64,000 nt of DNA from the NCBI GenBank assembly GCA_043820105.1, contig JBDREC010000103.1:15405-79404 (forward strand), given 5' to 3'. The notes below the pieces were generated by a model. It made no database searches. It was given only the letters and a program-made list of their open reading frames with translations, and was not told where the DNA came from. This DNA is from Pseudomonadota bacterium (GTDB taxonomy: Bacteria > Bdellovibrionota_F > JAHFAK01 > JBDREC01). Shown here piece after piece: positions 35,593 to 63,758 of this stretch. Both the position numbers and the translations under genes were made by a program. Each line of letters begins with the position of its first letter. Within the stretch, counting starts at the first letter, position 1.

Positions 35593-37218
35593 ATGAATAA
35601 AAAAAAATTAATATACAGTTCGATAAAAGCCATTAAAATTAGTGAACCTAGGATTGAACATTTACAAAAAACAATTGAAAACTTGCTTGGCATAGTTGAA
35701 TTTGAATATAAAGGAAAACCCGTCAAAATAGATGCTTTTAGATTAAAAAAGCTTAAAACATGGGCTAATAATCATTGTCATTATTCTTCTTTTATTAATT
35801 TTGACCTTGCTCGTGAATGTAATATTAACTGTGTTTTTTGTGTTCATCACGGTGACCCGAAAGATCTAATCTTTGAAAATGGCAAGTGTCATATTTCAGA
35901 AGAAGAGTTTTATACTAGATTAAAATATTACAATCCAACCTTACAAACTGGTTTGTTTATACCTTTATATAGGTGGAGAGAAGCTCTTCTTAGTGAAAAA
36001 TCGATAAAATATTTTAAAAAAATTAGAGAAAAAACTAATGGATTATTGACATTCTGGTCAAATGGATCCGTTTTAACGGAAAAAGTTATTAAAAAATTAA
36101 GTAAACTTAAACCAATTTTTTTAATGCTATCGTTAAACAATGCAAGAGAAGAATATCGCTTCAAATTTATGAATGATAAAAATCCTAAAATAGCCATAGA
36201 TTCTCTTAAACTTCTAGATAAACATCAGATAGCCTATGCTGTTAGTATTTTAAAATGGCCAGGTGTTGATATTGAAAGTCTTGAAGAAACTGTTTTTTAC
36301 GTATCAAAACACAATCCAATTTTCATTAGATTTATACTGCCGGGTTTTACAAAATATTCTAACCTTCCTAAAAAACACCAATTTGAAAACATTGAAGATG
36401 AATGGAAATGTATTATTAAATTGGCCAATAAACTGAGAAATAAAATATCCTGTCCTTTGCTTACTGTGCCGATGGTGTATGAAGATGATTTCTATCATAA
36501 GAAGATAGATAAATTAATAGTAGGGGGGGTAGTGAAAAACGCCCCTGCTTACAATTTAATAAAAAACAAAGACATTATCCTTGGAATTAACAATATTACA
36601 GTTGGAGGAAGACAAGAGGGAGTTGATTATTTAACAAGTCTTTATGAATATAAAAAACTCAAAAAAATTAAGCTGAAAGTCTTAAGACAAAAACAAATAA
36701 TTTATGTTACATTAACAAAGCATCCATATAGTTTTCCTTATACTAGAGAATATGAAGAAATTTATTCATTTCCCTTTGGTATGATTTTTGCCAATGGGTT
36801 TGATGATATGACAATCCAGGGAATAGCCAAAATTATTGAAGAAAACAAAGCAAAAAATGTAGTTATATTTGTAAGTGATTTAATAAAACCATCCTTCTTA
36901 AAAACAATTAAAAGGTTAAAATTAAAACAATATTTAAGGGATAATTTTAAAGCAAAGTTTAGAGTAGAAACAGCTGAGAATGATTTTTTTGGCAAAGCAA
37001 TCTTACCAGGAAGTCTACTTGTTTGCGATGATTACATAAAAAGAATTAAAACTTTATTAAAGGAAAATATAAAGATAGATCTTATTATAATTCCCTCCTC
37101 CATATTTTTTTCTTCAATGGGCTGGAAGAGAGATTTAAAGGGAGATATATTTAAAAAAATAGAAAAAGAATGCAAAATAAAAGTAGAAATAATTGATTGC
37201 GAGATAATGAATAATTAA
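35593..37218 (+). CDS. Radical SAM enzyme with internal PDZ-like domain
   Basis: CxxxCxxC (CNINCVFC) near residue 77; PDZ-like segment LIVGGVVKNAPAYNLIKNKDIILGINNITVGG; 541 aa. Confidence 0.6.
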   Translation: MNKKKLIYSSIKAIKISEPRIEHLQKTIENLLGIVEFEYKGKPVKIDAFRLKKLKTWANNHCHYSSFINFDLARECNINCVFCVHHGDPKDLIFENGKCHISEEEFYTRLKYYNPTLQTGLFIPLYRWREALLSEKSIKYFKKIREKTNGLLTFWSNGSVLTEKVIKKLSKLKPIFLMLSLNNAREEYRFKFMNDKNPKIAIDSLKLLDKHQIAYAVSILKWPGVDIESLEETVFYVSKHNPIFIRFILPGFTKYSNLPKKHQFENIEDEWKCIIKLANKLRNKISCPLLTVPMVYEDDFYHKKIDKLIVGGVVKNAPAYNLIKNKDIILGINNITVGGRQEGVDYLTSLYEYKKLKKIKLKVLRQKQIIYVTLTKHPYSFPYTREYEEIYSFPFGMIFANGFDDMTIQGIAKIIEENKAKNVVIFVSDLIKPSFLKTIKRLKLKQYLRDNFKAKFRVETAENDFFGKAILPGSLLVCDDYIKRIKTLLKENIKIDLIIIPSSIFFSSMGWKRDLKGDIFKKIEKECKIKVEIIDCEIMNN

Positions 37219-37235
37219 AAGAATTAAGGATATAT

Positions 37236-37439
37236 ATGTCAAATCCAAATCTTTCAAATACTAAAGACTTCATTTATAGATACAAAATAAATACCAATAA
37301 ACCAGAAATGGATCTTGTTTCATTTTATAAACAGCAAATTAAAGACTTATTAGAGATTGTTGATCTATATTCTAGCAATAAGAAAATTAACTTAAATGGA
37401 TTTTCTTTTATAAATAAAAATAAAATTCACAAACTCTAA
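37236..37439 (+). CDS. Small protein (67 aa) between the two radical SAM genes; candidate precursor peptide or accessory factor
   Basis: AAGGA RBS 8 nt upstream; no Cys; C-terminus NLNGFSFINKNKIHKL rich in aromatic/Asn/Lys residues. Confidence 0.4.
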   Translation: MSNPNLSNTKDFIYRYKINTNKPEMDLVSFYKQQIKDLLEIVDLYSSNKKINLNGFSFINKNKIHKL

Positions 37440-37464
37440 TTAATATTATTTTAAAGAAAAAAAT

Positions 37465-38265
37465 ATGAATTTAAGTTTCAAGTTAACAAATAAATGCAAT
37501 TATAAGTGTAAGTACTGCTATTTAGCTCCTACTAAAAAAACAACTAATTTAAAATTAGAACATTTTGATAAGTTTCTTCAGTTCGCTGATCCAAAAAAAG
37601 ATTTAATAACCCTGTCAGGGGGTGAACCAACTTTGCACCCTGAAATAGATAAGATCTTAAGGCGCCTTGAGCATCACCAGATACGAATCTGTACAAATGG
37701 CACTTATCTTCAAAATATAATCCAAATGTTGGTACCTGAACATACAACTATTGATCTAAGTTTCCATTATTTTAACCGCCAAATTAAAAATGCTATTTCT
37801 CTTCTCATAAAATATAAGATAGAATATTTTATTAATATTGTCATACATGATGCAACTAAAAATAGGTTAAAAGAAATTATTGAACATACAAAACCTACAA
37901 AAAATTATCATCTTCTACACCCAACTGCAACAGATTCAAACACTATAGATGAAATCCAAGAAAATCAGTGGCGAACTTTAGTAAAAACAGCTAAAATTAT
38001 TTTTGATAAATATAATAAAAAAGTTTTTTATGAAAAATCATATAAAGATAAAACAGATAACTATTTTAGAAAAAAAATATGCTCTGGAACATATTCCAAT
38101 TTTATTGATGAGTATGGAAGAATATATCCATGTTCCTTCGGACCTGAATATGGTTTACCCTCTCTTAAGAAAACAGGTTCAATAAATTTTCATTCGAATT
38201 GTCCTTATTTGAAAAGTTCTATAGATAAAACTAAGACTTGCCCTTTTTTTATGGTGTTGCTGTAA
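37465..38265 (+). CDS. Radical SAM enzyme with C-terminal Cys-rich auxiliary-cluster (SPASM/twitch-like) region
   Basis: CxxxCxxC (CNYKCKYC) at residues 11-18; C-terminal Cys at CSGT, YPCSF, SNCPY, KTCPF. Confidence 0.65.
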   Translation: MNLSFKLTNKCNYKCKYCYLAPTKKTTNLKLEHFDKFLQFADPKKDLITLSGGEPTLHPEIDKILRRLEHHQIRICTNGTYLQNIIQMLVPEHTTIDLSFHYFNRQIKNAISLLIKYKIEYFINIVIHDATKNRLKEIIEHTKPTKNYHLLHPTATDSNTIDEIQENQWRTLVKTAKIIFDKYNKKVFYEKSYKDKTDNYFRKKICSGTYSNFIDEYGRIYPCSFGPEYGLPSLKKTGSINFHSNCPYLKSSIDKTKTCPFFMVLL

Positions 38266-39667: not shown

Positions 39668-40192
39668 TCAGCTAAGACACGTAATGTGCTCTGGCGCTAC
39701 TTTCCCAAGTGTCTTAACAAAAGTAACTTTTGAGTCATTTAAGTCATAAAAATCTTTTAATATACTTTCTTGGATATAGCCATTTTTTAAGTAAAATTGC
39801 CTGGTAGACTCATATTGAGGCTTAGAAGAAGTTTCAGCATATATATTTTTTCCGCCAAAACTGGCTATTTTTTGTTCTGTTTCTTTTAATAAATTTGACC
39901 CTATTTTTTGTCCTCTACAATCATTAGAAATTGCAATCCAATATAAATCATAACTACTTTTTGTACAAGCAATGTGCCCGAAAGAAGTGAAACCAACTGT
40001 TTTATTGTTATATTCTGAAAAGATAAAATTATATCCGCTTTTAATTCCTTTATCTAATCTTTCTTTAACAATCTCAACTGCTGTATCAATTTCATAATCA
40101 TGAAAAAAGCCAGTTGACGCAGTGATGAGTTTTACATTTTCGAGATCTTTTACTGATACTTCTTCTCGAAAATTTAATGATTTGTTTTCCAT
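39668..40192 (-). CDS. GNAT family N-acetyltransferase
   Basis: Acetyl-CoA-binding motif region CRGQKIGSNLL; last gene of the KamA/ATP-grasp operon. Confidence 0.65.
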   Translation of the reverse strand: MENKSLNFREEVSVKDLENVKLITASTGFFHDYEIDTAVEIVKERLDKGIKSGYNFIFSEYNNKTVGFTSFGHIACTKSSYDLYWIAISNDCRGQKIGSNLLKETEQKIASFGGKNIYAETSSKPQYESTRQFYLKNGYIQESILKDFYDLNDSKVTFVKTLGKVAPEHITCLS

Positions 40193-40222
40193 ATAATCCT
40201 TAAATAAATTAGTTAATAATAT

Positions 40223-41212
40223 TTAAATAGAATCCGAGATGATACTTTTTACAATTTCAAAAATGTCAATTCCACTTTCTGCGGCGGCTGCTACAAATCC
40301 AGCATCTGGAGAAAGACATGGATTAATATTGATTTCAAGTACAAATGGATTATTGTTTTTATCAATTCTAAAATCAACCCTTGCATAACCCATAACATCA
40401 AAAACATTCCAACACTTTACAGATATATTTCTAAGTTTTTTTAATAAGGTATAATCTTTTTTCTCAAATTTAAAATTCCGCTTTGTATTGATATATTCAA
40501 AGGACTGTTCATCCCATTTTGCTTTATAAGCAATAATTTTAGGTTTATTTTCAGGAAAATTAATAAATTGAATTTCAGCACACGGCAAAACTGTTGGTGT
40601 TTTCTTTTGATTTCCAAGCAAAGCGATGTTAAATTCTCTGCCATCAATATATGATTCAATAAAATATTCATTTAGAATTATTTTATTTTTGTTCTTGTAC
40701 TTTATTAAGTCATTTTTTGTATAAAAAACAGACTTATCATTTAAGCCTTTTGATGCATGATCATAAATAGATTTTAATATATATGGGGGTTCAAATGAAA
40801 TATTATCATTTGATAAATCACTTAACAAAACCGAATTAGGAGTAGAAACATTATTTAGGCGTAATAATTTTTTTAATAATAATTTGTTTGTTGTTAAATT
40901 AAAGGTAAAAGCTTTTGAGCCTGTATATTTTATTCCCATTGAATCAAGCAATGCAGGAATGATAGCAGCAAGATTATCTTTATTTGCAATTGACTCAACC
41001 AAATTAAAAACAAATGATATTTTATTTTCTTTTAATTTTATTAATAGCTTTTCTAGGTTAAGGTTTACAGGAATTTCAATTGGATGATAAGCAAGCTTGC
41101 TTAAAGCATTTTTAATATATTTAACTTGAGTATATGTATCAAGATCATCTAAGGATGATTGAGAAGATAATTTGCCATATAATATTCCAATATTTTTCAT
41201 GTCTTGTTTCAT
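40223..41212 (-). CDS. ATP-grasp ligase, D-Ala-D-Ala ligase-like
   Basis: ATP-grasp C-terminal motifs (YIDGREFNIALLG; YARVDFRIDKNNNPFVLEININPCLS); 4-nt overlap with upstream ATP-grasp gene. Confidence 0.65.
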   Translation of the reverse strand: MKQDMKNIGILYGKLSSQSSLDDLDTYTQVKYIKNALSKLAYHPIEIPVNLNLEKLLIKLKENKISFVFNLVESIANKDNLAAIIPALLDSMGIKYTGSKAFTFNLTTNKLLLKKLLRLNNVSTPNSVLLSDLSNDNISFEPPYILKSIYDHASKGLNDKSVFYTKNDLIKYKNKNKIILNEYFIESYIDGREFNIALLGNQKKTPTVLPCAEIQFINFPENKPKIIAYKAKWDEQSFEYINTKRNFKFEKKDYTLLKKLRNISVKCWNVFDVMGYARVDFRIDKNNNPFVLEININPCLSPDAGFVAAAAESGIDIFEIVKSIISDSI

Positions 41213-42183
41213 TTAATTCTTTTTTTTGCAAAATAAATTATTTTACTGATTAATTCTTCATAAGAAATATTTACTTTTTTACAAAGTATTATAAGATCTC
41301 CGACAACAGGATGTATGCCAGCCAAGGGATTTACTTCTAAAAAATTTGGTCTGCCATATTTATCACTTTTAATGTCTATTCTTCCAGCATCCCTACAACC
41401 TAAAACTTTCCAGGCATTTAAAGCAAGATTCATTGCCAGCCTTGCTTCTTCATCATTAACAAGATTATATTCGACTCTATCTAAATAGTTTTCTTTATTT
41501 GAATAAGTATAAAGCTCTTTTTCCGCGTTTTGATTTAGCAATATTTCTAATGTACCAATTGCTTCTGCCTCATCGCCTGTTCCTATGATTCCAACTGTAA
41601 ATTCTCTGCCTGGTAAAAAATCTTCAGCTAAAACAGGTTGCGAGAAATTTTTTAGTAAATTTTCTGCCATTGATTTTAGCTGATCAATATTTTCAACTTT
41701 TGAAAGATGAGATATCCCTTTTCCAGTGCCTTCTGCAAGAGGTTTAACAATAATAGGGAAGTTTAAATTAAAATTATCTATATCCTTAATATCTTCAATA
41801 ATAAAAAAATCAGGTGTTAATAATTTTGCATCTCTTACAATTCTTTTAGTCATTGCCTTATGAAGGGTTAATGATAAAACCAAAGGATCAGAAAATGTAT
41901 AGGGGATATTATAAGCATCAAGGATTGCAGGAACTTGAGCTTCCCTTCCAAAACCCTTAACACCTTCTGCAATATTAAAGACCAGATCCCATTTTTCTTC
42001 CTTGCATAGTCTTGAAACAAGGTTTTTTATGTGTCCAATTCTTGTAGTTTGATGCCCTAAACTTTTTAGTGTAGTGTCTATTGCATCAATAGTTGCTAGT
42101 TGATCAAATTCCGCAACTTCTTCTTTTCCATAACCCATTTCTAGATAATCATCTTTTAGATCATATGTAATTCCAATATGCAT
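41209..42183 (-). CDS. ATP-grasp ligase, D-Ala-D-Ala ligase-like
   Basis: GREFTVGIIGTGDEAEAIGTLEIL and GRIDIKSDKYGRPNFLEVNPLAG match Ddl-family ATP-grasp patterns. Confidence 0.65.
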   Translation of the reverse strand: MHIGITYDLKDDYLEMGYGKEEVAEFDQLATIDAIDTTLKSLGHQTTRIGHIKNLVSRLCKEEKWDLVFNIAEGVKGFGREAQVPAILDAYNIPYTFSDPLVLSLTLHKAMTKRIVRDAKLLTPDFFIIEDIKDIDNFNLNFPIIVKPLAEGTGKGISHLSKVENIDQLKSMAENLLKNFSQPVLAEDFLPGREFTVGIIGTGDEAEAIGTLEILLNQNAEKELYTYSNKENYLDRVEYNLVNDEEARLAMNLALNAWKVLGCRDAGRIDIKSDKYGRPNFLEVNPLAGIHPVVGDLIILCKKVNISYEELISKIIYFAKKRIK

Positions 42184-42219
42184 TGGAAACTCCTTTTTAA
42201 AATATTTATTTTAATAAAA

Positions 42220-43527
42220 TTATTTTGATTTAGCTTTTTTGTTTAAGGGATATTTATAAAGTAATCCTTTATAATTTTTAAGGATGATATCATTTTCATT
42301 GATACTATCAACATAATTGGGAAGAAGTGGTATTTTACCACCACCATCAGGCGCATCAATAACAAATGTTGGAATAGCATACCCACTTGTATGCCCTCGT
42401 AAGCCATTTATAATTTCAAGACCTTTTTCTATGGGGGTTCTGAAATGAGCTGAACCCACAATTGGATCACATTGATATAGATAATAGGGTCTAACACGAA
42501 TTTTTAGTAAATTATGAAAAAGTGTTTTCATTGTTTTAATATTATCATTAATCCCTGCAAGCAAAACTGTTTGACTTCCAAGAGGGATACCATAATCAGC
42601 TAATCTGTTGCATGCTTGACTAACTTCAGGTGTTATTTCATTCGGGTGAGTGAAATGAATACTTAAATATAAAGGTTGATATTTTTTAAGTATCCTTAAT
42701 AAATTTATTGTAATACGCTGAGGTAATACTACAGGTGCCTTGGTTCCTATGCGAATTATCTCAACATGAGGAATTTGTCTGAGTCTACTGAGTAAATATT
42801 CAATTTTATTATCTACAACAATGAGCGGATCTCCTCCTGACAACAATACATCTCTGATATTTTTATTTTGTTCTATATAGTTTAAAGCTTTTTCCCAATA
42901 ATTAACTTTAAAACGATATTTATCATTTGGTCTCATGATTCGAGATCGAGTACAATATCTGCAATTTGAGGTGCAAAATTTTGTTACTAAAAGTAAAACC
43001 CTATCAGGATATCTATGAACAATTCCAGGAACTGGACTGTCTTTATCTTCGCCAAGGGGATCAAAGTTTTCTTCTGGAGAATGTATGAGTTCTTTAGTTA
43101 TAGGAATTACAGTTTTTTTGATGTAACTATTTTTTGCCAGGCTTGCATAATAGGGGGTCATTGTAACTAAAAACTTATTTTCAAACAATGATATAGCTTT
43201 TTTTTCATCTTCACTTAATTTTATTATTTTTTCTATTTTTGAAAGACCGTGCACTCTGTTTTTCAATTGCCATTGCCATGAATTCCAATCATTATTACTG
43301 GCTTCAGGATAATATTTATTTCTAAATTCATCTGATGTTGAACTTATTGTAAAAAATTCATTTGCTTTTGAATCCCTCTTGTCTAAATAATTTATAGATA
43401 GGATACCATTCTGTAATGAATTTGTTTCTAAAGAATTGGAATTTATTAGATTACTAGCAAGTAAATTATTCTCAATAGAAAGTGGCGGAGGCTCTCCATC
43501 TTCTAAACCGATTATTTTATTTATCAT
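42220..43527 (-). CDS. Lysine 2,3-aminomutase-family radical SAM enzyme (KamA/AblA/EpmB-like) with approx 80-aa N-terminal extension
   Basis: WQWQLKNRV ... TPYYASL N-terminal signature; CxxxCxxC as CTSNCRYCTRS; extension rich in Asn/Ser/Leu. Confidence 0.75.
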   Translation of the reverse strand: MINKIIGLEDGEPPPLSIENNLLASNLINSNSLETNSLQNGILSINYLDKRDSKANEFFTISSTSDEFRNKYYPEASNNDWNSWQWQLKNRVHGLSKIEKIIKLSEDEKKAISLFENKFLVTMTPYYASLAKNSYIKKTVIPITKELIHSPEENFDPLGEDKDSPVPGIVHRYPDRVLLLVTKFCTSNCRYCTRSRIMRPNDKYRFKVNYWEKALNYIEQNKNIRDVLLSGGDPLIVVDNKIEYLLSRLRQIPHVEIIRIGTKAPVVLPQRITINLLRILKKYQPLYLSIHFTHPNEITPEVSQACNRLADYGIPLGSQTVLLAGINDNIKTMKTLFHNLLKIRVRPYYLYQCDPIVGSAHFRTPIEKGLEIINGLRGHTSGYAIPTFVIDAPDGGGKIPLLPNYVDSINENDIILKNYKGLLYKYPLNKKAKSK

Positions 43528-43751: not shown

Positions 43752-44557
43752 TTAGATTCTGCCTAAAAAGTGGGCAAAATAAATTGTAAAAAACTTCAGG
43801 ATTTTAAATGTCTTTATTTAAAAAACAATTTCATTATAAGTTAGATTATATTTTCCGCAATAATATTTATAGCAAAAAAGGCTGGAATATTACCTGTTTC
43901 AGCCCTCAATATCCACAAGCTAAACCAAGACGCTTTATATTAAAAGAAATCGCAGTAAAATAAAGCTGCAATCGAAAATTTAATTTCCCACGATATCTAC
44001 ATCTGCAAAAACCGTATCCTCTTTTCAATGCTGATATCGTTCCCTCAATCGCATTTCTATTTTTCATCTCTTCTTTATACTCATCTGTCTTCATCAACTT
44101 TCTTGCTTCATCATGATCGACTACTCTCTGTCGCCAGACTGATAACAATTGATAACTAAAACCTGCATATTCCAGGTCAAGCTCTAATGCAATTTTCCAG
44201 TCTAATCTAAATATCAGATTTTGAATCGTTTGCCTGTCAGGAAGCTTTTCCAGAAACTGTAATATTGTTACACACATTAATAACCTCGGTGACACTGGTG
44301 GTCTTCCACCTTCTTTATACATCTGTTCGAAATCAGTATCTAATATTTTGGGAAATATAAATTCATGACATACCTTCACATGATCTCTGATTTCTGGAAA
44401 CACATTTAACATGATACCCGCCTTGAATAATGATTGTTGATTGTACTTTGATAAGTCCTTTGGCATCTATATTATATAAGCATTATCTGCACTTTGTAAA
44501 GATCTTGAGCTTAATTATTTGCTTAATATTTTAGCCCACTTTTTAGGCAGAATCTAA
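43752..44557. mobile_element. Internally deleted IS5/IS1182-like element (approx 806 bp) with perfect 24-bp terminal inverted repeats
   Basis: TTAGATTCTGCCTAAAAAGTGGGC at 43752-43775 is the exact reverse complement of 44534-44557; encloses a transposase ORF lacking the catalytic core. Confidence 0.75.
43906..44466 (-). pseudogene. Truncated transposase: IS5/IS1182-like N-terminal domain fused to C-terminal tail, DDE core missing
   Basis: N-terminal GRPPVSPRLLMCVTILQFL ... (DUF772-like) joined to C-terminal AIEGTISALKRGYGFCRCRYRG ... NIKRL; only 186 aa. Confidence 0.6.
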
Positions 44558-44712: not shown

Positions 44713-45000
44713 TTAAACTTTAGCTGCGCCAATGACACAGCTCAAAAGATATTGAACGCCATTGTTAAGGTTACCTGAAATGCAATAACTCATTTCGTCT
44801 GTTTCATTACCGCTAGTGCAACTGGGAACGACCATCCAGTATGAAGGTCCGGAACCCACACCGCAATCAGCACCTGAGGCGCTTTCTCCTGATTGGCATG
44901 ATTTGCCCCGCGTACTTGGCGTGGTAGCACCTGAGCCAGTCGAACAGTACAGTCTTTTTAAGTTGAGTAGAGTGTGTAATATTGGAGGAGAATACTTCAT
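44713..45000 (-). CDS. Small Cys/Gly/Ser-rich protein with conserved MKY...P.L...L..L.YC.TGSGA N-terminus (paralogue 1)
   Basis: ATG at 44998-45000; paralogue of 63233-63577 with the same N-terminal pattern and Cys roughly every 12-15 residues. Confidence 0.5.
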   Translation of the reverse strand: MKYSPPILHTLLNLKRLYCSTGSGATTPSTRGKSCQSGESASGADCGVGSGPSYWMVVPSCTSGNETDEMSYCISGNLNNGVQYLLSCVIGAAKV

Positions 45001-45301
45001 AATTACCACCTTTATAACTGAATAACGCTGAGAAGATACGCAACAGTTAGTAGCTTTTCATACTTACTTCTATTAATCTTTAACCTGATAGGTTACCTAT
45101 TTTAGTTATCACCTCGTGTGTGGGTTCTAATGCATGTGACCGAACAAACACTTAGGAAATAGAATTAAACTATGCAAAACCAAAAATATTGTCAATGTGG
45201 AATATTGTCAATTATATTTTCTTCACTAACTGAGCAGGTAGTAGTTATGGGACTGACATGCGTATTAATAATCAAGATTATGCATTAGAAAAAAATTCAA
45301 A

Positions 45302-45320
45302 GGGGTCAGGCCTTGACAAT
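45302..45320 (+). repeat. REP-like element copy (GGGGTCAGGCCTTGACA core) upstream of RAYT gene
   Basis: Same core at 45397-45420 (direct) and 46567-46588 (inverted). Confidence 0.5.
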
Positions 45321-45396: not shown

Positions 45397-45420
45397 GGGG
45401 GGGGGCAGGCCTTGACATTC
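45397..45420 (+). repeat. REP-like element copy (GGGGGCAGGCCTTGACATTC) upstream of RAYT gene
   Basis: Core CAGGCCTTGACA shared with 45302-45320 and the inverted copy at 46567-46588. Confidence 0.5.
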
Positions 45421-45589: not shown

Positions 45590-46582
45590 ATGCCTAGACC
45601 TAAAAGAATTGAATATGAAGGTGCTTGGTATCACGTCATGAATAGAGGTGCTAGCAAGAAAAACATTTTTCATTCACATGATGACAGGAACTTTTTTTTA
45701 AAAATGCTAGCGCATGTCAGTGATCAATGGAATTTTCAGACACATGCCTATTGTTTAATGACAAATCATTATCATTTGCTTGTGCATACACCAAATCTTG
45801 GCTTGTCAGAAAGTATGCGACATCTTTCTTCAATTTATACAATGAGATATAATAAGAAATATAAAAGGGATGGAGCATTGTTTAGAGGTAGATTCAAATC
45901 AATATTGTTAGATAGGGATGATTGTGCATCAGCAATATTAAGATACATTCACCAAAATCCCGTAAAGGCAGGTTTATGTAAAAATGTAGAATCATACAAG
46001 TGGTCTAGTCACAGAGCATATTTAAATGAAAAAAATAAACCGTCATTTCTATATACAGATGAGATATTGAAAGATTTTGCAAAGATTAGTTCTAAGGCAA
46101 GGCGAAAATTGCATGAGTTTGTGACTGGAAGAGAATCTAAAGATTTTATTAACTCTATAGAAGGGCCAAGACCTGTATCTGTAATGGGATCAGAGGGTTT
46201 TAGAGATTGGATAAAAGATAATTATTTATATAAAGTAAACAAAGATAAGTTAATTTCAACAGCAAGAAGTAATAAGCGCCCTGAAATTATACCAAAGCAA
46301 ATGTTATCATATGTTAGCTCTGAATTCAGTGTCAGTAAAAAAAGCATTATGGAAAATAAGTCTGGATCCATTGCAAATATACCAAGACTGACATATTTAT
46401 ATTTATTGCATAAAATTGCAGGTTTTACACATAATGAAATCGCTGAGATAAGCAAATCAGGAAACAAAGCTTCAGTAGCTCAAAACATTTATCGTTTTTC
46501 AAGGAGATTGGAAGAGGATGAATGTTTGGGCGAAAGGATTAAAGGTATGAAGGGGAATTTGTTGTCGAATGTCAAGGCCTGA
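45590..46582 (+). CDS. REP-associated tyrosine transposase (IS200-like HuH Y1 transposase) with C-terminal HTH-like extension
   Basis: YHVMNRG N-terminus, HuH motif HYHLLVH, catalytic Tyr context RYIHQNPVKAGL; flanked by inverted REP-like repeats. Confidence 0.7.
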   Translation: MPRPKRIEYEGAWYHVMNRGASKKNIFHSHDDRNFFLKMLAHVSDQWNFQTHAYCLMTNHYHLLVHTPNLGLSESMRHLSSIYTMRYNKKYKRDGALFRGRFKSILLDRDDCASAILRYIHQNPVKAGLCKNVESYKWSSHRAYLNEKNKPSFLYTDEILKDFAKISSKARRKLHEFVTGRESKDFINSIEGPRPVSVMGSEGFRDWIKDNYLYKVNKDKLISTARSNKRPEIIPKQMLSYVSSEFSVSKKSIMENKSGSIANIPRLTYLYLLHKIAGFTHNEIAEISKSGNKASVAQNIYRFSRRLEEDECLGERIKGMKGNLLSNVKA

Positions 46583-46588
46583 CCCCTC
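46567..46588 (-). repeat. REP-like element copy in inverted orientation immediately downstream of RAYT gene
   Basis: GAATGTCAAGGCCTGACCCCTC is the reverse complement of the upstream REP core; overlaps the RAYT stop region. Confidence 0.5.
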
Positions 46589-49260: not shown

Positions 49261-49338
49261 TTTGAATTGTTTTATATTATTATTTATTCCAATTAATTAT
49301 AACAATTTAAACTTAAGTTTATGCATATGGAGCTAATA

Positions 49339-50748
49339 ATGACCAAAAAAGAACTGGATTTAATTTTACATGAAGGGGAAAACTATAAAATCGAGTTCAA
49401 AGAAAATGTTAACTCTGATTTGTCAAAAGAAATGGTTGCTATGGCAAATTCATCTGGAGGTAGGATATTTATTGGGATTAATGATAAAAACGAAGTAATA
49501 GGTGTGAAAGCAACAAATGCTTTGTTATCTAAAATTCAGAATATGGCCCAGGATTGTGATCCCTCAATTATTATCAACATTAATACTTATAAAAATATTT
49601 TAATTATTAATGTTAAAGAAGGTTTAAATAAACCATATCGCTGTAGTAAAGGTTTTTATACTAGGAATGGTTCAAATTCACAGAAAATGACAACCAGAGA
49701 GATAACTGAATTTGTGCAAGCAGAAGGTAATGTTAGGTTTGATGAAAAGCTTCGGGAAGATATAAATATAAGTAAAAAAATTAAAAAAGAACTGCTTAAT
49801 CATTATTTGCAATTAGCAAACATTAATAAGACAATGGATGATGAATTTATACTAGAAAATTTAGGAGTACTGGAGCAAAAGAATAAGAAATCATATCTTA
49901 ATAATGCTGGGCTATTGTTTTTTTGCGATTCTACTAACCCACATCTTCATTATGCAAATATTACTTGTGCTTTATACAAGGGCAGTGAAAAGCTAAATGT
50001 TTTGGACAGAAAAGATTTTTCATCTGATATAATTTCTAATATCGAAGATACCATGTTGTTTTTGAAAAAGCATTTAAATCTTAGATATGAAATAACATCA
50101 TTAAGAAGAAAGGAAATTCTTGAGCTGCCTGAAGTTGCTTTGCGTGAAGCAGTAGTCAACGCTGCTTGCCACAGAGACTATTTTGAAAAAGGTGCCAATA
50201 TTATGGTTGAGATATTTGATGATAGGGTCCAAATAACTAACCCTGGTGGATTGCCTAAAGGCTTGTTACCAGAAAAATTTGGAACCAGAAGCGTATCAAG
50301 AAATCCTTTAATCACTTCATTGTTCCATCGTGTTGGCTACATTGAAAAAATGGGAACAGGTATAGGTAGAATAAGAAAGTCCCTCAAGGAATCAGGTAAT
50401 TCAGAAGCTGTATTTGAATATGACAGTTTTTTTTCAGTGATATTTAAAAGATCTATCTTAGAAAATGGAGCTAGTTCAGACATACAAGTTACCGGACAAG
50501 TCACCGGACAAGTTCCCGAACATGTCACCAAACTACTTAGTATATGCAAAGGAGAGTTGTCTCGTAGTGAATTGCAGGATATATTAAAATTAAAGCACAG
50601 AGAGAACTTTGTGAATTTATATCTAAACCCAGCATTGGAATCTGCTTTTATCGAAATGACAATTCCAGGCAAACCAAGATCAAGCAAACAAAAATACCGC
50701 TTAACAAAAAAAGGGAAAGATTATTTAAAGAAACTGCCTGAAAATTAA
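49339..50748 (+). CDS. Schlafen/AlbA_2-like domain protein with HATPase_c_4-like domain and C-terminal wHTH (COG2865-type regulator)
   Basis: N-terminal KELDLILHEGENYKIEFKE ... ANSSGGRIFIGIND; central REAVVNAACHRDYF ... NPGGLP ... SRNPLI ... MGTGIGRI; VTGQVTGQV linker repeat; start at ATG 49339 with GGAG RBS. Confidence 0.6.
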   Translation: MTKKELDLILHEGENYKIEFKENVNSDLSKEMVAMANSSGGRIFIGINDKNEVIGVKATNALLSKIQNMAQDCDPSIIININTYKNILIINVKEGLNKPYRCSKGFYTRNGSNSQKMTTREITEFVQAEGNVRFDEKLREDINISKKIKKELLNHYLQLANINKTMDDEFILENLGVLEQKNKKSYLNNAGLLFFCDSTNPHLHYANITCALYKGSEKLNVLDRKDFSSDIISNIEDTMLFLKKHLNLRYEITSLRRKEILELPEVALREAVVNAACHRDYFEKGANIMVEIFDDRVQITNPGGLPKGLLPEKFGTRSVSRNPLITSLFHRVGYIEKMGTGIGRIRKSLKESGNSEAVFEYDSFFSVIFKRSILENGASSDIQVTGQVTGQVPEHVTKLLSICKGELSRSELQDILKLKHRENFVNLYLNPALESAFIEMTIPGKPRSSKQKYRLTKKGKDYLKKLPEN

Positions 50749-50752
50749 GCAC

Positions 50753-50890
50753 GTGAGTGAACGAATAGGTGTTTCGCAGTCAACTTATTTCCAGTGGGAG
50801 GTTGAATCGTTTCCAACGAAGCCGGTTTATTATAAGATGCTGGCTAAGCTTTATGGGTTTGATGTTGATAGGTTGATGTTTGGGGGGTGA
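50753..50890 (+). pseudogene. Duplicated 3' fragment of the xre-like gene (approx 85% identical to 49100-49260)
   Basis: Direct nucleotide comparison; begins right after the Schlafen-like gene stop; lacks the 5' part of the HTH. Confidence 0.55.
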
Positions 50891-51172
50891 TTAAAGGGAT
50901 AAATAGCGTCCTTATGACCTGCCACAGAATAAGATTATTAATTAGTTGGTAGGGACGAGGGGGCAAAGGTGTTGTTGCTTAATTCAGCTTGATAGCTATC
51001 ATATTTATCGCAAAAGAGATTATGTTTTATCAATATTCATTGTTGCTATTTCTCGTAATTCTTATCACATTTGGAGGTGTTGAAAATTATAGTAAAAAAT
51101 ATTATGCAATACGAAAAAAAATGATGAAAAAGAACGAGCAGATGGCTTGTGTAATCAATTGGGGGATATCAG

Positions 51173-51418
51173 ATGAAAAATGATGATACAATAAGAGTTT
51201 CAGAATTAATAGAAATTCTAAATAAATACCCAAAAGATATGGTAGTTGTAACAGATGGATATGAAAGCGGTTATGAAAATATACTTTACCCTGGAATAAT
51301 TGATGTTATCCTGGAACCTGAAAACATGTATTTTGACGGTGAATATCAAAATGCTAACGATAAGGATAAAAACAAACTTGAAGTATTAGCTATTAGGCGA
51401 AATAAAAGATGGGATTAA
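51173..51418 (+). CDS. Hypothetical small protein (81 aa)
   Basis: GGGGGA RBS approx 7 nt upstream of ATG. Confidence 0.35.
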   Translation: MKNDDTIRVSELIEILNKYPKDMVVVTDGYESGYENILYPGIIDVILEPENMYFDGEYQNANDKDKNKLEVLAIRRNKRWD

Positions 51419-51729
51419 GGGGAGGATCACCATGAAGCTTAAAATGAAAAATTAGAGAAGGTTTCTATAAATTGTGCAGGATCTTCAACGCTTGGTGATT
51501 CTGAAGAAGATAATGCCAATTGCTATTCAGTTTATAAATTTACCTACAACAGGATTGAGGAAGAGCAAATAAAGATGATTGAATAATTGTAAATAAAAAA
51601 TATTTAATTTATCTGAAAATTTAGGATGGTTTTGTTTAAGGATGATTTGAATTTAATGTATCTTATTGCTATTTATTTTCTTGTATTTAAACATATATTG
51701 AAAAGTATCAAAGGGGAAAATGAAAAAAA

Positions 51730-52413
51730 ATGTGTTTTAAATCTTATTTATCTTTCCATGTCATAACATCAACATATTTAGTTCTTTTAATGTGTATAGC
51801 AATCCTTACGTGTTTTTATGGTACGGTAATAATAATACTTTTAAAAAACACGGATAAGAAAAATAGGGGAAAATTCATTAAAAGCTACTTTACCAAAGAC
51901 AAACTATATAAGGAAAGTGCAAGTTTAGGGGCATTTATTGCCCTGATTTTATCCTATTTTTACCTTTATTACAAAAGCAATGGAATAGGAGATATACGAT
52001 TCATAGTTGCACTTGAAGAGAGTCCTCTTATAAGCCTTATATGGAGTGCATTTGCAATTGGTTTTATAATAAGAGCTTTTTATCATGGATTTTGTGAAAT
52101 AAGAGATGCAAGAGTTATTGTTAAGGGATATAAAAAATGGATTAAATGGAAGAGATTTCACTTCGTTTGGTCTATAGCAGAAATATTATCCATGTTTATT
52201 CCGTCTACTTTAATTGTAAAAGGATGGATAAAAGGCTTGTCTTTGGGAGTAAGAATATTAAGCCCTGTGCTTCGGAAGGCACTGTCTAAAAAGGTTGATA
52301 AAATAATTCATTCAGAAATATCAAAATCCATTGGGGCAGCAATTATTAATGGCGTCCTGGAATATTTTGCAAGAATAGTATTTATTCTTTTAGCGATTAA
52401 CATTGTGACTTAA
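51730..52413 (+). CDS. Hypothetical polytopic membrane protein
   Basis: Several predicted TM helices; no motif recognised. Confidence 0.4.
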   Translation: MCFKSYLSFHVITSTYLVLLMCIAILTCFYGTVIIILLKNTDKKNRGKFIKSYFTKDKLYKESASLGAFIALILSYFYLYYKSNGIGDIRFIVALEESPLISLIWSAFAIGFIIRAFYHGFCEIRDARVIVKGYKKWIKWKRFHFVWSIAEILSMFIPSTLIVKGWIKGLSLGVRILSPVLRKALSKKVDKIIHSEISKSIGAAIINGVLEYFARIVFILLAINIVT

Positions 52414-52980
52414 TTCATTGAGATTTAATAAAATATATAAAAATCCAAATTGTTTAAAAACATCGGTTTGCTAGCCGCTTACATTGGAAATAAAATAAAT
52501 ATATACAATGGAAAATTAAATTTTTTTTTTAACACCTGAGCTTATATGGTGGTTGTGATGGTATTGGCCCATATAGGATAACTGAAGACGATGGGAAATG
52601 TGCCTAATAAGCCAAGGGATTTTATAAAGGTTCTTCTGGAAAAGGAATCTGCCATAAGATTTTCCTATTTATGATTATTTGCATATTCAGGAAAATGCAC
52701 TATAACAGATGGTTGTGACAGGTTAGGGCATTTGCATGAAGAAAATTTTAGAACACCTGATATCGAAGATTATACTTTAATATCAAAATTAGCAAGTTAT
52801 GGGTGCAATGAAAACATGATTTCATGATTTGAAATAACAATTATGTGTAAGGTTTGCAAAAAGATGACTACAAATAAGAAAATTTGGTATTTCAAATCAT
52901 ATCAATTCAAATAGATAAAATATTACTTCATTTTCTTATTCAAAATTAATAAATCACAGATATTTATATAATTGATAAAC

Positions 52981-54804
52981 TTAATTAATTCTTTTTAAAT
53001 ATACATGTACTTGTTCATAAATTTCCTTATAAGTTCCATCTTTCTTCAACCAGTTATTTGTATCAGTAGATATCCAATCTTCTTTTTTATATTCTTTTTT
53101 TCCTTCCTTTTTTACATCTAATCTATTTTGTAATGAATTGATAATTTTTAAAATATAGTTATCAAAATCTTCTCCAATCTCCAAGCAATACTGTGAATTT
53201 TTTGAAATATATTTTTGACCGTGTAATGTTTTAAGTTTATCTTTTAAATTATCAATAGTTGAAATACTATTAATATCATTTTTGAAAAAATAGATTGCAC
53301 TCAAAGCAAGTATTACATCATTTATATAATTATTTTGAAGAATTTCATACTTCATAATATTATTGTTTTTTATCTGATTAATCTTTTCTGATATTCTATA
53401 AGATAGCATTAATTTATGAAATTGGTCTTCTTCATTTATTGTCATGCTAAAAATATTATCATAACAATGATCTGAAAAAACAAGTTTATATCTTCCTTTT
53501 GTAGATATTGGTATTTGGAGAAAAAAAGACATAAAAGATATTCCAATATCTATGTTCTTAATCTTTAAATGCAAAGGACTTTTACCAAAAGGATTACGGT
53601 ACTTGCTTTTTTCAACAGTTGCCCATTCACCGTCCTTTTTGTCATAAAAGATTCCAACATCATCAAGGAATTTAAAAATTTTAACTTGTATTCTATCACC
53701 TGAATGTAGATCTCTTGTGCTAATAGCATTTTGACTATTACTGGCAACAGCAATATCCTTTGAAATTTTTGAAATTTTTGATTTTTTATTTATTTTTGTA
53801 AGTCGCATTAGAATCTGTACATTGTCAGGCAATTCGTTTACAATTCTTGTTAATGTCTTTGTAGTCTGTCCACCATTAACAATTTGAAAATTAGTAATCT
53901 GTAGTTTATTTTCATTTAATATCTTAAAGTCTTCACATATTGAATTGATACCATTGTTTAATATCCAAAAATTGGAACGACTACCTTTTGAGTATTCGTG
54001 TTTAATTTTTGAATTGATTTCATTTTCTCCTTTATAATAACGGACATTTAAAGCTAAAATCATCTCTTTATGTTTTTCTATTATAGGCCTCAAGGAGTTC
54101 GCTTTTATACTCGTAACAATAGTTTCAATTTCGGTTTTATCGTTATCATCATAAAAGTTTGAACATTTTTTAAAATATTCTTTTTCTACAATATCTATGA
54201 TTATTTCATTTTTAGGCATTTCAGTATCATCATAAAGCATTTCAAGACGGTTATAGTCAAAAAAATCAGGATAAAAATTAATTCCTTTATCTTCATAATT
54301 AGTGAATAATGCCATTATGTCAGTTTTGATATTGGTAGAATCAAAGGTGTTGTCTATATAATAAAAGTAAATATTATAATTATTATTTTCAATATTTTGA
54401 GGTGTTAATAAAGTATTAATTTCGTTATCAATTATTTTTTGTAACTTTTTGTTCGGTTTTTGCTCATCATAATTTATTTTTAAAAGCCGATCTATAAATT
54501 TTTTATTTTTTCTAATCTCATCTGTATTTAATAGATTATTATTTGAATATTTGAATTGAAATACATATATATCATGGTTATTTTGATTAGTAAAAATAGC
54601 ATCATTCCCTAAATCATTTGACATATCAACAATGTGCTCTTTAATGAACTCATTAATGTCTATGCCATCGTAGTCAAATTCAATTATTTTCCTGCTAAAA
54701 CACTCTTTAATAATAAAATGACCAAATGCTGTACCATCATTAGGATAATTAAAGGTTTCTCTTAAATCTGAAACCTGATCTTTTATTCTTTCATAAAAAC
54801 TCAT
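52981..54804 (-). CDS. AIPR-like abortive-infection family protein (putative)
   Basis: N-terminal restriction-endonuclease-like region (YDGIDI ... GNDAIF ... IYVFQFKYS) and central FQIVNGGQTTKTL motif as recalled for AIPR; start set at ATG 54804 with AGGAGA RBS. Confidence 0.45.
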   Translation of the reverse strand: MSFYERIKDQVSDLRETFNYPNDGTAFGHFIIKECFSRKIIEFDYDGIDINEFIKEHIVDMSNDLGNDAIFTNQNNHDIYVFQFKYSNNNLLNTDEIRKNKKFIDRLLKINYDEQKPNKKLQKIIDNEINTLLTPQNIENNNYNIYFYYIDNTFDSTNIKTDIMALFTNYEDKGINFYPDFFDYNRLEMLYDDTEMPKNEIIIDIVEKEYFKKCSNFYDDNDKTEIETIVTSIKANSLRPIIEKHKEMILALNVRYYKGENEINSKIKHEYSKGSRSNFWILNNGINSICEDFKILNENKLQITNFQIVNGGQTTKTLTRIVNELPDNVQILMRLTKINKKSKISKISKDIAVASNSQNAISTRDLHSGDRIQVKIFKFLDDVGIFYDKKDGEWATVEKSKYRNPFGKSPLHLKIKNIDIGISFMSFFLQIPISTKGRYKLVFSDHCYDNIFSMTINEEDQFHKLMLSYRISEKINQIKNNNIMKYEILQNNYINDVILALSAIYFFKNDINSISTIDNLKDKLKTLHGQKYISKNSQYCLEIGEDFDNYILKIINSLQNRLDVKKEGKKEYKKEDWISTDTNNWLKKDGTYKEIYEQVHVYLKRIN

Positions 54805-54903
54805 AATAAATCTCCTATTTAAAAATTCAATTGTATCTATCATGTCATGAATTAATAGTCAAAATTCACTCAAGCTAATTAAAAAATTTGGTTCTCGTCC
54901 GTC

Positions 54904-63232: not shown

Positions 63233-63577
63233 TTAAAAACCTACTTCAGTATTTGAGCGGCCTTGAGAACATGTAGTTCCAACATTTGCACTGCCTTCAT
63301 AGCAGCCACCATTTACAACGGTATTATTGTTATTAGTTCCAGCATTGCAAACACCATAATAAAAACTTCCAGATGTATTTGATGGTCCAGTGTAACATCC
63401 GCGGTTAACGCCTACATTGGCTCCAGTTCCGGTTGAACAATAAGAATCTCCGCTTATTCCACTTCCGGATCCGCAAAGGGTGTTGGATGCTATGCTTCCA
63501 CTTGCACCTGAACCTGTATAGCAATAGTTTAAGCCAGGCAATGAAATGTTTATAAGCTTAGGCGTTAGGTATTTCAT
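63233..63577 (-). CDS. Small Cys/Gly/Ser/Asn-rich protein with conserved MKY... N-terminus (paralogue 2)
   Basis: ATG at 63575-63577 with GGAGA RBS 8 nt upstream; Cys at regular approx 13-residue intervals; paralogue of 44713-45000. Confidence 0.55.
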   Translation of the reverse strand: MKYLTPKLINISLPGLNYCYTGSGASGSIASNTLCGSGSGISGDSYCSTGTGANVGVNRGCYTGPSNTSGSFYYGVCNAGTNNNNTVVNGGCYEGSANVGTTCSQGRSNTEVGF

Positions 63578-63758
63578 TATTTTTTTCTCCAGAATATTAG
63601 AATAAAAACCCAATAATAATGCTCATGTATTTGAGTTCTTTTATTTATTATTTTATACCTATTTGCAAACAAAAAACTATATAAAATTAAAAATATGCAC
63701 TTTTCCATTCTGTGGTATTTTCCTGATAGTTTTGAATATAGTTAAATATTATGTTTAC

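What the first reader, a model, noticed from the sequence alone, without database searches (positions are those of the whole stretch)
44713..45000. Two paralogous small Cys-rich proteins with a shared leader-like N-terminus (also at 63233-63577)
Both begin MKY..P.L......L..L.YC.TGSGA and continue as Gly/Ser/Thr/Asn-rich sequence with Cys about every 12-15 residues. The N-terminus is not a typical Sec signal, so the architecture resembles leader plus core of a ribosomally synthesised modified peptide or a bacteriocin-like peptide. One copy sits beside the mini-IS, the other in the defence island; no maturase is immediately adjacent.
Basis: seen in the sequence. Interest (0 to 1): 0.6.

Follow-up and report, generated by a model that had tools for sequence, protein, structure and literature searches.

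The report
Orphan ScmA-like radical-SAM peptide precursors
The two small Cys-rich genes are real and belong to a rare, unpublished family of leader-plus-repeat peptides that in other genomes sit beside the "SynChlorMet" radical-SAM peptide-modifying enzymes, but this window holds none of those enzymes, so both copies are stand-alone precursor-like genes.

Summary
Both ORFs exist as described, on the minus strand: A at 44713-45000 (95 aa) and B at 63233-63577 (114 aa). They share an MKYxxPxL N-terminus. Every Cys (6/6 and 7/7) starts a C-x-x-G unit, and no other ORF in the window has more than two.

They belong to a sparse family. I collected 36 unique members from very diverse bacterial and archaeal MAGs. 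The shared architecture is YxxPx[LIMV], 9-12 residues, then 4-8 units of C-x-[TSDN]-G-[ST]-[GS]-[AP]-[ST].

In four independent loci, family peptides lie beside SynChlorMet cassette proteins: ScmC (HPrK-like), ScmD (PqqD-like), and ScmE/ScmF (radical SAM/SPASM). Three components score above NCBIfam's curated cut-offs and ScmD is just under.

A profile built only from those enzyme-adjacent peptides scores A at 32 bits and B at 33 bits. Composition-matched shuffles reach at most 11 bits.

NCBIfam's narrow precursor model (TIGR04252, ScmA) misses both window proteins. The window has no Scm enzyme. About three quarters of loci elsewhere also lack one.

The chemistry (probably Cys thioether cross-links) and whether maturation occurs in this organism remain inferred. 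I found no publication on the system. Verdict: a new variant of a known but uncharacterised kind, of moderate interest.

The parts
44713..45000 (-). Copy A coding sequence (95 aa plus stop), an ScmA-like precursor-type peptide
   Evidence: ORF. Scores 32.0 bits against a profile built only from Scm-adjacent peptides, against a maximum of 10.7 for 500 shuffles. GC3 is 0.385 against 0.224 +/- 0.041 for window genes. Not found in the public protein collection.
44947..45000 (-). Copy A leader-like region, residues 1-18 (MKYSPPILHTLLNLKRLY), with Y3-x-x-P6-x-L8
   Evidence: Alignments (P6 invariant, Y3 at least 90%). The spacing from the motif to the first Cys is 10 residues, within the family range of 9-12.
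44716..44946 (-). Copy A core, residues 19-95: six units starting CSTG, CQSG, CGVG, CTSG, CISG, CVIG
   Evidence: Unit layout; 6 of 6 Cys in CxxG.
45006..45013 (-). Shine-Dalgarno-like AAAGGTGG, 5 nt upstream of copy A's ATG
   Evidence: Read directly from the sequence. The upstream GTG at 45009 lies inside this site, so the ATG at 45000 is the likely start.
63233..63577 (-). Copy B coding sequence (114 aa plus stop), an ScmA-like precursor-type peptide; public record MFH1729782.1, 'hypothetical protein ABIA04_15325'
   Evidence: ORF; identity to the public record. Scores 33.1 bits against the Scm-adjacent profile, against a shuffle maximum of 5.5. GC3 is 0.261, close to the window average.
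63524..63577 (-). Copy B leader-like region, residues 1-18 (MKYLTPKLINISLPGLNY), with Y3-x-x-P6-x-L8
   Evidence: These first ~9 residues are the only part of the AlphaFold model with pLDDT above 60.
63236..63523 (-). Copy B core, residues 19-114: seven units starting CYTG, CGSG, CSTG, CYTG, CNAG, CYEG, CSQG
   Evidence: Unit layout; 7 of 7 Cys in CxxG.
63587..63590 (-). GGAG, 9 nt upstream of copy B's ATG
   Evidence: Read directly from the sequence.

Best explanation
Copies A and B are ribosomally made precursor-type peptides of an extended ScmA-like family.

Proposed mechanism, with each step marked as shown or inferred:
1. An ~18-residue N-terminal leader carries Y-x-x-P-x-L. The motif and its fixed 9-12 residue distance to the first Cys are shown.
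2. The leader is bound by a PqqD-like recognition protein (ScmD). This is inferred from ScmD adjacency in L017 and from the role of the same motif in lasso peptides.
3. Two radical SAM/SPASM enzymes (ScmE, ScmF) then modify the repeated C-x-[TSDN]-G-[ST]-[GS]-[AP]-[ST] units. The most likely product is one Cys-derived thioether cross-link per unit. This is inferred from the invariant Cys and Gly and from ScmE's closest solved relatives: SkfB and CteB (thioether-forming) and PqqE.
4. The HPrK-like ScmC may phosphorylate Ser or Thr, as lasso-associated kinases do, and an ABC transporter may export the product. Both are inferred.

In this window none of the enzymes is present. Both copies are stand-alone genes that either depend on a cassette elsewhere in the genome or are unprocessed cargo of variable, mobile-element-rich regions.
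For: The family is real:
- The exhaustive profile search found 6 further members.
- A degenerate DNA pattern found 26 candidate matches among 58 loci in genome and metagenome collections, about 25 of them true members (one, L060, was excluded); with the other searches this gives 36 unique sequences.
- Family statistics: motif to first Cys is 9-12 residues in 35 of 36; 199 of 214 core Cys are in CxxG; the unit motif is defined.

Enzyme association:
- ScmC in L015: 240 bits against a cut-off of 125.
- ScmD in L017: 93 bits against 100.
- ScmE in L017 and L043: 536 and 464 bits against 400.
- ScmF in L043 and L055: 553 and 558 bits against 400.
- All are next to family peptides. L017 carries three peptides (gene maps).

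Link to the window proteins:
- A profile built from only the six Scm-adjacent peptides scores A at 32.0 bits and B at 33.1 bits.
- Shuffles reach at most 10.7 bits, and all other window ORFs at most 4.5 bits.
- Short family members weakly hit NCBIfam's precursor model TIGR04252 SCM_precur_ScmA from the YxxPxL motif onward.

Other support:
- YxxPxL is the lasso leader motif used together with a PqqD-like B1 protein and an HPrK-like kinase (PMC10368454).
- There is no Sec-type hydrophobic segment.
- AlphaFold gives no fold (pLDDT 38.8).
- Both genes have ribosome-binding sites.
- ScmE's nearest solved structures are SkfB, PqqE and CteB.
Against: - The window has no ScmC or ScmD, and only generic radical-SAM similarity to ScmE/F.
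- Neither window protein hits TIGR04252, even at E up to 10.
- Only 4 of about 16 independent loci with roughly 3 kb or more of context carry any Scm gene. This is unusually low for RiPP precursors. It could mean many copies work without the cassette or do not work at all.
- The enzyme association was found starting from the peptides. The reverse test, from enzymes to peptides, could not be run (searches found no true ScmF).
- There are no expression data. No experimental work on any Scm component was found.
- The AlphaFold alignment had only 11 sequences, so the absence of a fold is weak evidence.
Confidence: 0.72

Rival explanations
1. The peptides are substrates of other radical SAM enzymes encoded in the window, not of Scm enzymes. 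Candidates are the DUF512+PDZ radical SAM (35593-37218) with the 266-aa twitch-like radical SAM (37465-38265), or the KamA-like enzyme (42220-43527) 1.2 kb downstream of copy A.
For: - A DUF512-type radical SAM is embedded among the three peptides of the L017 cluster. It is collinear with the window's DUF512 protein (21% identity over 287 aa, E=2e-5).
- The 266-aa radical SAM joins the ScmE/F BLAST cluster at E<1e-8 and has a Cx12Gx4C motif.
- A KamA-family enzyme also lies 670 bp upstream of the peptide in L006.
Against: - The window enzymes are 6.5-9 kb from copy A, on the opposite strand, with an unrelated operon in between.
- Similarity to ScmE/F is confined to the generic radical-SAM core (38 and 30 bits to the ScmF and ScmE models).
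- The window's KamA-like protein is near-canonical (468 bits to lysine 2,3-aminomutase). It sits with two Ddl-like ligases and a GNAT, which fits a small-molecule beta-amino-acid pathway, and it is only 26% identical to the L006 enzyme.
- An IS fragment separates it from copy A.
Confidence: 0.1
2. The two copies are non-functional passengers here: intact-looking but unprocessed genes carried into variable regions by mobile elements, with no role in this organism.
For: - There is no maturase in 64 kb.
- Copy A is flanked by an IS fragment and a Y1 transposase with REP-like repeats. Its GC3 is an outlier (0.385 against a window maximum of 0.333).
- Copy B sits in a defence island.
- Mobile-element neighbours recur elsewhere: an integrase in L001 (rve), IS701 in L015 and group II intron RT in L027/L059/L062, and a HicA toxin in L056.
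- L022 carries a truncated copy.
Against: - Both ORFs are full length with every family feature, including the invariant P6 and all the C/G pairs and a typical C-terminal unit. Both have ribosome-binding sites.
- Copy B's codon usage looks native.
- Dispersed precursors served in trans are known in other RiPP classes (my own knowledge, for example prochlorosins).
Confidence: 0.15
3. They are small unmodified Cys-rich repeat proteins, for example metal-binding or disulfide-stabilised structural or secreted proteins, and not enzyme substrates.
For: Regularly spaced Cys with a Gly/Ser/Thr/Asn-rich composition could form a solenoid or a metal-binding ladder. Most loci lack modifying enzymes.
Against: - There is no signal peptide, no predicted fold (pLDDT 38.8), and no Pfam or NCBIfam domain.
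- The conserved N-terminal motif matches an enzyme-recognition motif.
- Four loci have Scm enzymes adjacent.
- The number of Cys is often odd (7 in copy B).
Confidence: 0.05
4. They are chance ORFs in locally GC-richer DNA.
For: Copy A's region is about 50% GC in a 31% GC window and has ORFs in several frames. Copy A is not annotated publicly.
Against: Protein-level conservation across 36 sequences from unrelated lineages, with invariant Pro, Cys and Gly; the profile scores against shuffles; ribosome-binding sites; no Rfam match.
Confidence: 0.01

Closest known systems
SynChlorMet cassette precursor ScmA (NCBIfam TIGR04252, 'SCM_precur_ScmA') with ScmC/D/E/F (TIGR04249, 04248, 04250, 04251)
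   Same: - The N-terminus starts at the Y-x-x-P-x-L motif and is followed by Cys-containing units. In L001d the model's positions 1-47 align from 'YDCPALIDL...'.
- Family peptides lie beside ScmC, ScmD, ScmE and ScmF.
   Different: - The curated model is 49 positions long and fits short peptides with three or four 10-residue units. The window proteins are 95 and 114 aa, with six and seven units spaced 11-16 residues apart.
- They do not hit the model at all. The best family hit is 15.6 bits against a cut-off of 35.
- The window has no cassette.
- The cassette exists only as database definitions. No paper was found.
Lasso peptide precursors (leader motif YxxPxL, bound by the PqqD-like B1 protein; some clusters include an HPrK-like kinase)
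   Same: The leader motif is identical, and the same two accessory protein types appear in the associated cassette: PqqD-like ScmD and HPrK-like ScmC.
   Different: - There is no Thr/Ile/Val at the position that would be -2. An aromatic residue and the first Cys fall there.
- The core is 77-96 aa instead of about 15-26, with no Gly1 or Asp/Glu7-9 macrolactam pair.
- No lasso cyclase or B2 protease was seen in any annotated neighbour.
Radical SAM/SPASM thioether RiPPs (sactipeptides such as SKF; ranthipeptides such as SCIFF/CteA and freyrasin/PapA)
   Same: Cys-rich cores processed by PqqD-dependent radical SAM/SPASM enzymes. ScmE's nearest solved relatives are SkfB and CteB. PapB, SCIFF and other such models are secondary hits.
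   Different: - The unit here is an 8-residue motif after each Cys, with a 9-16 residue period. It is not CxxxD/CXXX repeats or a compact six-Cys cluster.
- There are two different SPASM enzymes plus an HPrK-like protein.
- The chemistry is unknown.

Membership tests
ScmA (NCBIfam TIGR04252, SynChlorMet cassette precursor) | Scores at or above the curated cut-off (35 bits) against the TIGR04252 model | tested here: not met
   Copies A and B give no hit at E up to 10. The best family members reach 15.6, 15.3 and 11.9 bits.
ScmA (NCBIfam TIGR04252, SynChlorMet cassette precursor) | Encoded next to the ScmC/ScmD/ScmE/ScmF cassette | tested here: not met
   No ScmC or ScmD, and only generic radical-SAM similarity, in the 64 kb window. 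This feature is met for relatives in L015, L017, L043 and L055. The rest of the 123 kb contig and genome could not be examined.
ScmA (NCBIfam TIGR04252, SynChlorMet cassette precursor) | N-terminal YxxPxL-type leader followed by repeated Cys-containing units | tested here: met
   Y3, P6 and L8 are present in both copies, with 6 and 7 C-x-x-G units. A profile from Scm-adjacent peptides gives 32.0 and 33.1 bits.
Lasso peptide precursor | YxxPxL leader motif at -17 to -12 | tested here: met
   The motif is present at residues 3-8. Its definition is taken from PMC10368454.
Lasso peptide precursor | Thr (rarely Ile/Val) at -2, then a short core with Gly/Ala/Ser/Cys1 and an Asp/Glu at position 7-9 | tested here: not met
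   The residue 10 after the Leu is Tyr in both copies. The cores are 77 and 96 aa with no acidic residue at 7-9 (sequences; layout).
Lasso peptide precursor | Lasso cyclase (Asn-synthetase-like) and B2 protease nearby | tested here: not met
   Neither was found among the annotated neighbours in the window or in related loci.
Sactipeptide / ranthipeptide (radical SAM thioether RiPP) | Cys-to-carbon thioether cross-links installed by a radical SAM/SPASM enzyme | not testable with these tools
   This needs mass spectrometry or NMR of the matured peptide. The only evidence here is enzyme family resemblance.
Sec-secreted small protein or lipoprotein | N-terminal signal peptide with a hydrophobic core | tested here: not met
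   The maximum 9-residue Kyte-Doolittle mean is 1.57 (B) and 1.19 (A). Family leaders carry 1-10 charged residues. SignalP itself was not available.
Double-glycine-leader (class II) bacteriocin | GG/GA/GS cleavage site at the end of the leader and a C39-peptidase ABC exporter | tested here: inconclusive
   Gly is at -2 of the first Cys in 16 of 36 members, but in neither A nor B. The ABC exporter in L015 is cut at its N-terminus, so a C39 domain cannot be judged. The window has none near either copy.

The most novel reading that the evidence does not exclude
The extended multi-unit peptides define a distinct, still uncharacterised RiPP class. A lasso-type YxxPxL leader would deliver a long tandem-repeat core to two SPASM enzymes (plus a kinase-like protein, and in some clusters a DUF512-type radical SAM), giving a poly-cross-linked peptide. 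Dispersed 'orphan' precursors like the two here would be matured in trans, possibly with a role tied to mobile or defence regions.
Probability: 0.2. Interest if true: 0.7.

Novelty: new variant of a known kind. Interest (0 to 1): 0.5.

Why it matters
The SynChlorMet cassette is a database-defined peptide-modification system with no published biochemistry that I could find. Its curated precursor model recognises only a narrow set of short peptides.

This work links a wider set of long tandem-unit peptides to that cassette. These peptides are unannotated or labelled 'hypothetical', and they come from very diverse bacterial and archaeal bins. The work provides:
- a clear sequence definition (leader motif, fixed spacing, 8-residue unit);
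- compact candidate clusters for expression (L017, L043);
- a concrete, testable hypothesis that a lasso-type leader is recognised by ScmD.

For this window specifically, it turns one hypothetical and one unannotated ORF into recognisable precursor-type genes, and it shows that they are stand-alone.

Tried and rejected
- Pfam and NCBIfam on the two proteins: no hits.
- Word-indexed homologue searches: copy B found only itself; copy A found nothing, not even itself.
- Looking up the parent contig by exact protein: not on record, so DNA beyond the window could not be read.
I replaced it with a hand-made degenerate DNA pattern.
- KamA link. I first suspected the KamA-like radical SAM downstream of copy A, because L006 also has a KamA-family gene. 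I rejected it as the main explanation: the two enzymes are 26% identical and belong to different subfamilies, and the window's sits in a small-molecule-type operon.
- The window's 266-aa radical SAM as an Scm orthologue: rejected, because only core similarity is present.
- Reverse test from ScmF in viral contigs and plasmids: no true orthologues, best 28% identity.
- Asn or Asp at -3 of each Cys (an NxxC-type motif): no enrichment.
- Rfam over the whole window: nothing.
- Intrinsic terminators at either locus: none.
- My initial recollection that the cassette's precursor had never been defined was wrong. TIGR04252 exists.

Full report
**Observation**

- Copy A is 44713-45000 (95 aa from the ATG). 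AAAGGTGG lies 5 nt upstream. The alternative GTG start lies inside that site.
- Copy B is 63233-63577 (114 aa), with GGAG 9 nt upstream.

The pair is weakly but specifically similar.
- The first 26 residues are 46% identical.
- A gapped alignment gives 32% identity over about 100 residues.
- In a MAFFT alignment all six Cys of A align with the first six of B's seven.

Every Cys in both proteins starts a C-x-x-G motif. No other six-frame ORF of 40 aa or more in the window has more than two. A degenerate DNA pattern for the shared N-terminus hits only these two sites, with none in 100 shuffles. There is no DNA-level similarity between the copies. Rfam finds nothing in the window.

Copy B is a public 'hypothetical protein' of a Pseudomonadota MAG (MFH1729782.1). 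Copy A found no match in the protein database, not even itself, and so appears not to be annotated.

**A real but rare family**

Neither protein hits Pfam or NCBIfam. An exhaustive profile search of 1.8 billion representatives found six more small proteins with the same architecture.

A degenerate DNA pattern run over the genome and metagenome collections gave 58 loci. Twenty-six passed the filter, and about 25 are true members (one, L060, was excluded). They come from bins labelled WOR-1/Saganbacteria, Kapabacteria, Desulfatiglandales, Lentisphaerota, Eubacteriales, Aminicenantes, a deltaproteobacterium, Woesearchaeota and Micrarchaeota.

With tandem neighbours this makes 36 unique sequences. 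Their shared features are:
- Y-x-x-P-x-[LIMV], usually at residue 3.
- 9-12 residues from the motif to the first Cys, in 35 of 36 members.
- 199 of 214 core Cys in C-x-x-G, with a Cys period of mostly 9-16 residues.
- A core made up 69% of G/S/T/A/C/N, with under 2% K+R.
- Leaders that are usually charged (1-10 charged residues) and never hydrophobic enough for a Sec signal.

The unit is an aromatic residue enriched at -1, then C-x-[T/S/D/N]-G-[S/T/G]-[G/S]-[A/P]-[S/T], then a 2-8 residue linker.

**What sits next to the family elsewhere**

I clustered all flanking ORFs and built gene maps. These showed radical SAM proteins directly beside the peptides in several loci. NCBIfam identifies them as the SynChlorMet (Scm) cassette.

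| Component | Type | Locus and coordinates | Bits vs cut-off |
|---|---|---|---|
| ScmC | HPrK-like | L015:1236-2144 | 240 vs 125 |
| ScmD | PqqD-like | L017:5050-5397 | 93 vs 100 |
| ScmE | rSAM/SPASM | L017:5397-6471 | 536 vs 400 |
| ScmE | rSAM/SPASM | L043:1-900 | 464 vs 400 |
| ScmF | rSAM/SPASM | L043:834-2078 | 553 vs 400 |
| ScmF | rSAM/SPASM | L055:2744-4060 | 558 vs 400 |

- L017 is a compact cluster: three family peptides, a DUF512-type radical SAM, ScmD and ScmE.
- L043 reads ScmE, ScmF, peptide.
- L055 reads ScmF, peptide.
- L015 has an ABC exporter and ScmC convergent with the peptide.

The four loci come from different organisms. The two ScmF proteins are 56% identical.

NCBIfam also holds a precursor model, TIGR04252 'SCM_precur_ScmA' (49 positions, cut-off 35 bits). 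Only short family members touch it, at 12-16 bits, and the match starts at the YxxPxL motif. The window proteins do not hit it.

To tie the window proteins to the cassette without circularity, I built a profile from only the six Scm-adjacent peptides. It scores A at 32.0 bits and B at 33.1 bits. Controls:
- The best of 500 composition-matched shuffles each reach 10.7 and 5.5 bits.
- The best of the other 468 window ORFs reaches 4.5 bits.
- All 28 remaining family members score 15-51 bits.

**The window itself**

tblastn of ScmC, D, E and F against the window finds no ScmC or ScmD. It finds only generic radical-SAM core similarity at 37465-38265 (22-37% identity). That ORF scores 38 and 30 bits against the ScmF and ScmE models. 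Both copies are therefore stand-alone with respect to these 64 kb.

This is common for the family. Only 4 of about 16 independent loci with roughly 3 kb or more of context carry any Scm gene.

Copy A lies between an internally deleted IS5-like fragment (43906-44466) and a Y1/IS200-like transposase (45590-46582) flanked by inverted REP-like repeats. Its GC3 is 0.385, above every other window gene tested (mean 0.224, maximum 0.333). That suggests recent acquisition.

Copy B has native-looking codon usage. It sits among an AbiU/AIPR protein, two Schlafen-AlbA_2 proteins, a DUF2779/Cas4-like protein and a WYL regulator.

**How it most likely works**

*Shown:* the conserved leader motif at a fixed distance from the first repeat unit; the invariant Cys and Gly in each unit; and the adjacency of relatives to a PqqD-like protein, two radical SAM/SPASM enzymes, an HPrK-like protein and ABC transporters.

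*From the literature:* YxxPxL is the conserved lasso-peptide leader motif at -17 to -12. That paper tests its effect on phosphorylation and leader removal using co-expression with the B1 protein and an HPrK-like kinase (PMC10368454). Those are the same two protein types as ScmD and ScmC.

*Inferred:*
1. ScmD binds the leader.
2. ScmE and ScmF modify each unit. The most likely product is a Cys-derived thioether, because ScmE's closest solved relatives are SkfB, PqqE and CteB, and PapB, SCIFF and QhpD-type maturases are secondary hits.
3. ScmC may phosphorylate Ser or Thr.
4. An ABC transporter exports the product.

AlphaFold predicts no fold for copy B (pLDDT 38.8; only the first ~9 residues exceed 60). 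This fits a disordered substrate, but the alignment had only 11 sequences.

**Comparison and membership**

- **ScmA.** The proteins work like ScmA but fail the curated membership test. They are about twice as long, with six or seven units at 11-16 residue spacing instead of three or four at 10.
- **Lasso precursors.** They share the leader motif but fail the -2 residue, core length, macrolactam pair and cyclase criteria.
- **Sacti- or ranthipeptides.** They resemble these precursors in enzyme type only.

I therefore class them as a new variant of a known, though experimentally uncharacterised, kind. No paper in the searchable library mentions the cassette, its accessions, or a CxxG-repeat radical-SAM peptide.

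**Rivals**

- Other radical SAM enzymes in the window could be the maturases: the DUF512+PDZ and twitch-like pair at 35.6-38.3 kb, or the KamA-like enzyme. This is possible but weakly supported.
- Non-functional passenger copies cannot be excluded without the rest of the genome or expression data.
- An unmodified structural or metal-binding protein is unlikely.
- Chance ORFs are effectively excluded.

**Limits**

- The enzyme association was discovered starting from the peptides.
- The origin of the cassette's name and the behaviour of dispersed precursors in other RiPP classes rest on my own knowledge.

Noticed in passing
window 45302-45318 (-), 45401-45417 (-), 46570-46586 (+): Three copies of TGTCAAGGCCTGNCCCC (0 expected by chance) lie in inverted orientation on either side of the Y1/IS200-like transposase gene 45590-46582. 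This is a REP/RAYT-style arrangement immediately upstream of copy A.
   Followed up: partly
window 34297-38265: A possible separate peptide-modification module. It contains a 368-aa protein with no family hit, a 541-aa radical SAM with DUF512 and PDZ domains (35593-37218), a 67-aa ORF (37236-37439), and a 266-aa radical SAM with a Cx12Gx4C twitch-like motif (37465-38265). A DUF512-type radical SAM is also embedded in the L017 Scm cluster.
   Followed up: partly
window 39668-43527 (-): An operon of a near-canonical amino-acid 2,3-aminomutase (468 bits to AblA, below the 525 cut-off), two Ddl-like ATP-grasp ligases and a GNAT. It looks like a beta-amino-acid (beta-lysine-type) small-molecule or dipeptide pathway. 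An IS fragment separates it from copy A. A divergent KamA-family gene also lies 670 bp upstream of the family peptide in L006.
   Followed up: partly
window 49321-63986: A defence-island-like stretch: two Schlafen-AlbA_2/HATPase_c_4 proteins (49321-50748, 60728-62083), an AbiU/AIPR protein (52981-54843, 115 bits), a DUF2779/Cas4-like protein (58779-60287), a WYL/WCX regulator (62068-63138), and an 806-aa DnaE-like protein (56307-58727). The DnaE-like protein has PHP, polymerase and finger domains; from my own knowledge it looks short for a full-length Pol III alpha subunit.
   Followed up: partly
window 63759-63986 (-): A 75-aa ORF with only an HTH_11 domain matches the N-terminal part of WYL-regulator models. 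It lies directly upstream of copy B on the same strand. It could be a fragment or a small stand-alone regulator.
   Followed up: no
window 43906-44466 (-) and 32617-33705 (-): The 'mini-IS' next to copy A is a 186-aa ORF that joins the N-terminal DUF772 part and the C-terminal DDE part of an IS5-like transposase, so it looks internally deleted. A longer, possibly intact 362-aa ORF with related IS5-type transposase domains (DUF772 and DDE_Tnp_1) lies at 32617-33705; the two were not compared directly.
   Followed up: no
L001 1465-2862; L056 2279-2767; L017 2584-4766: Family peptides often occur as tandem arrays of diverged paralogues. There are four in a 3.1 kb contig binned as Micrarchaeota (next to an integrase), two in a WOR-1/Saganbacteria contig followed by a HicA toxin gene (the small ORF before it had no Pfam hit), and three in the L017 Scm cluster.
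   Followed up: partly
L027 1-342, L059 1-351, L062 3656-4405: A group II intron-type reverse transcriptase ORF ends about 20 bp upstream of the family peptide. The L062 ORF scores 110 bits to TIGR04416; the L027 and L059 ORFs were assigned to it by BLAST clustering. The three loci may reflect one or two insertion events.
   Followed up: no
L053 6824-7516, L061 3008-4102, L022 7164-7763, L020 1422-4109: An ABC-transporter ATPase gene lies next to the peptide: directly upstream in the Aminicenantes-type loci (18 bp away in L053, 141 and 195 bp in L022 and L061), and about 2 kb upstream in L020 as part of a GntR, ABC ATPase and membrane-protein set. This could be an export or immunity module.
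   Followed up: partly
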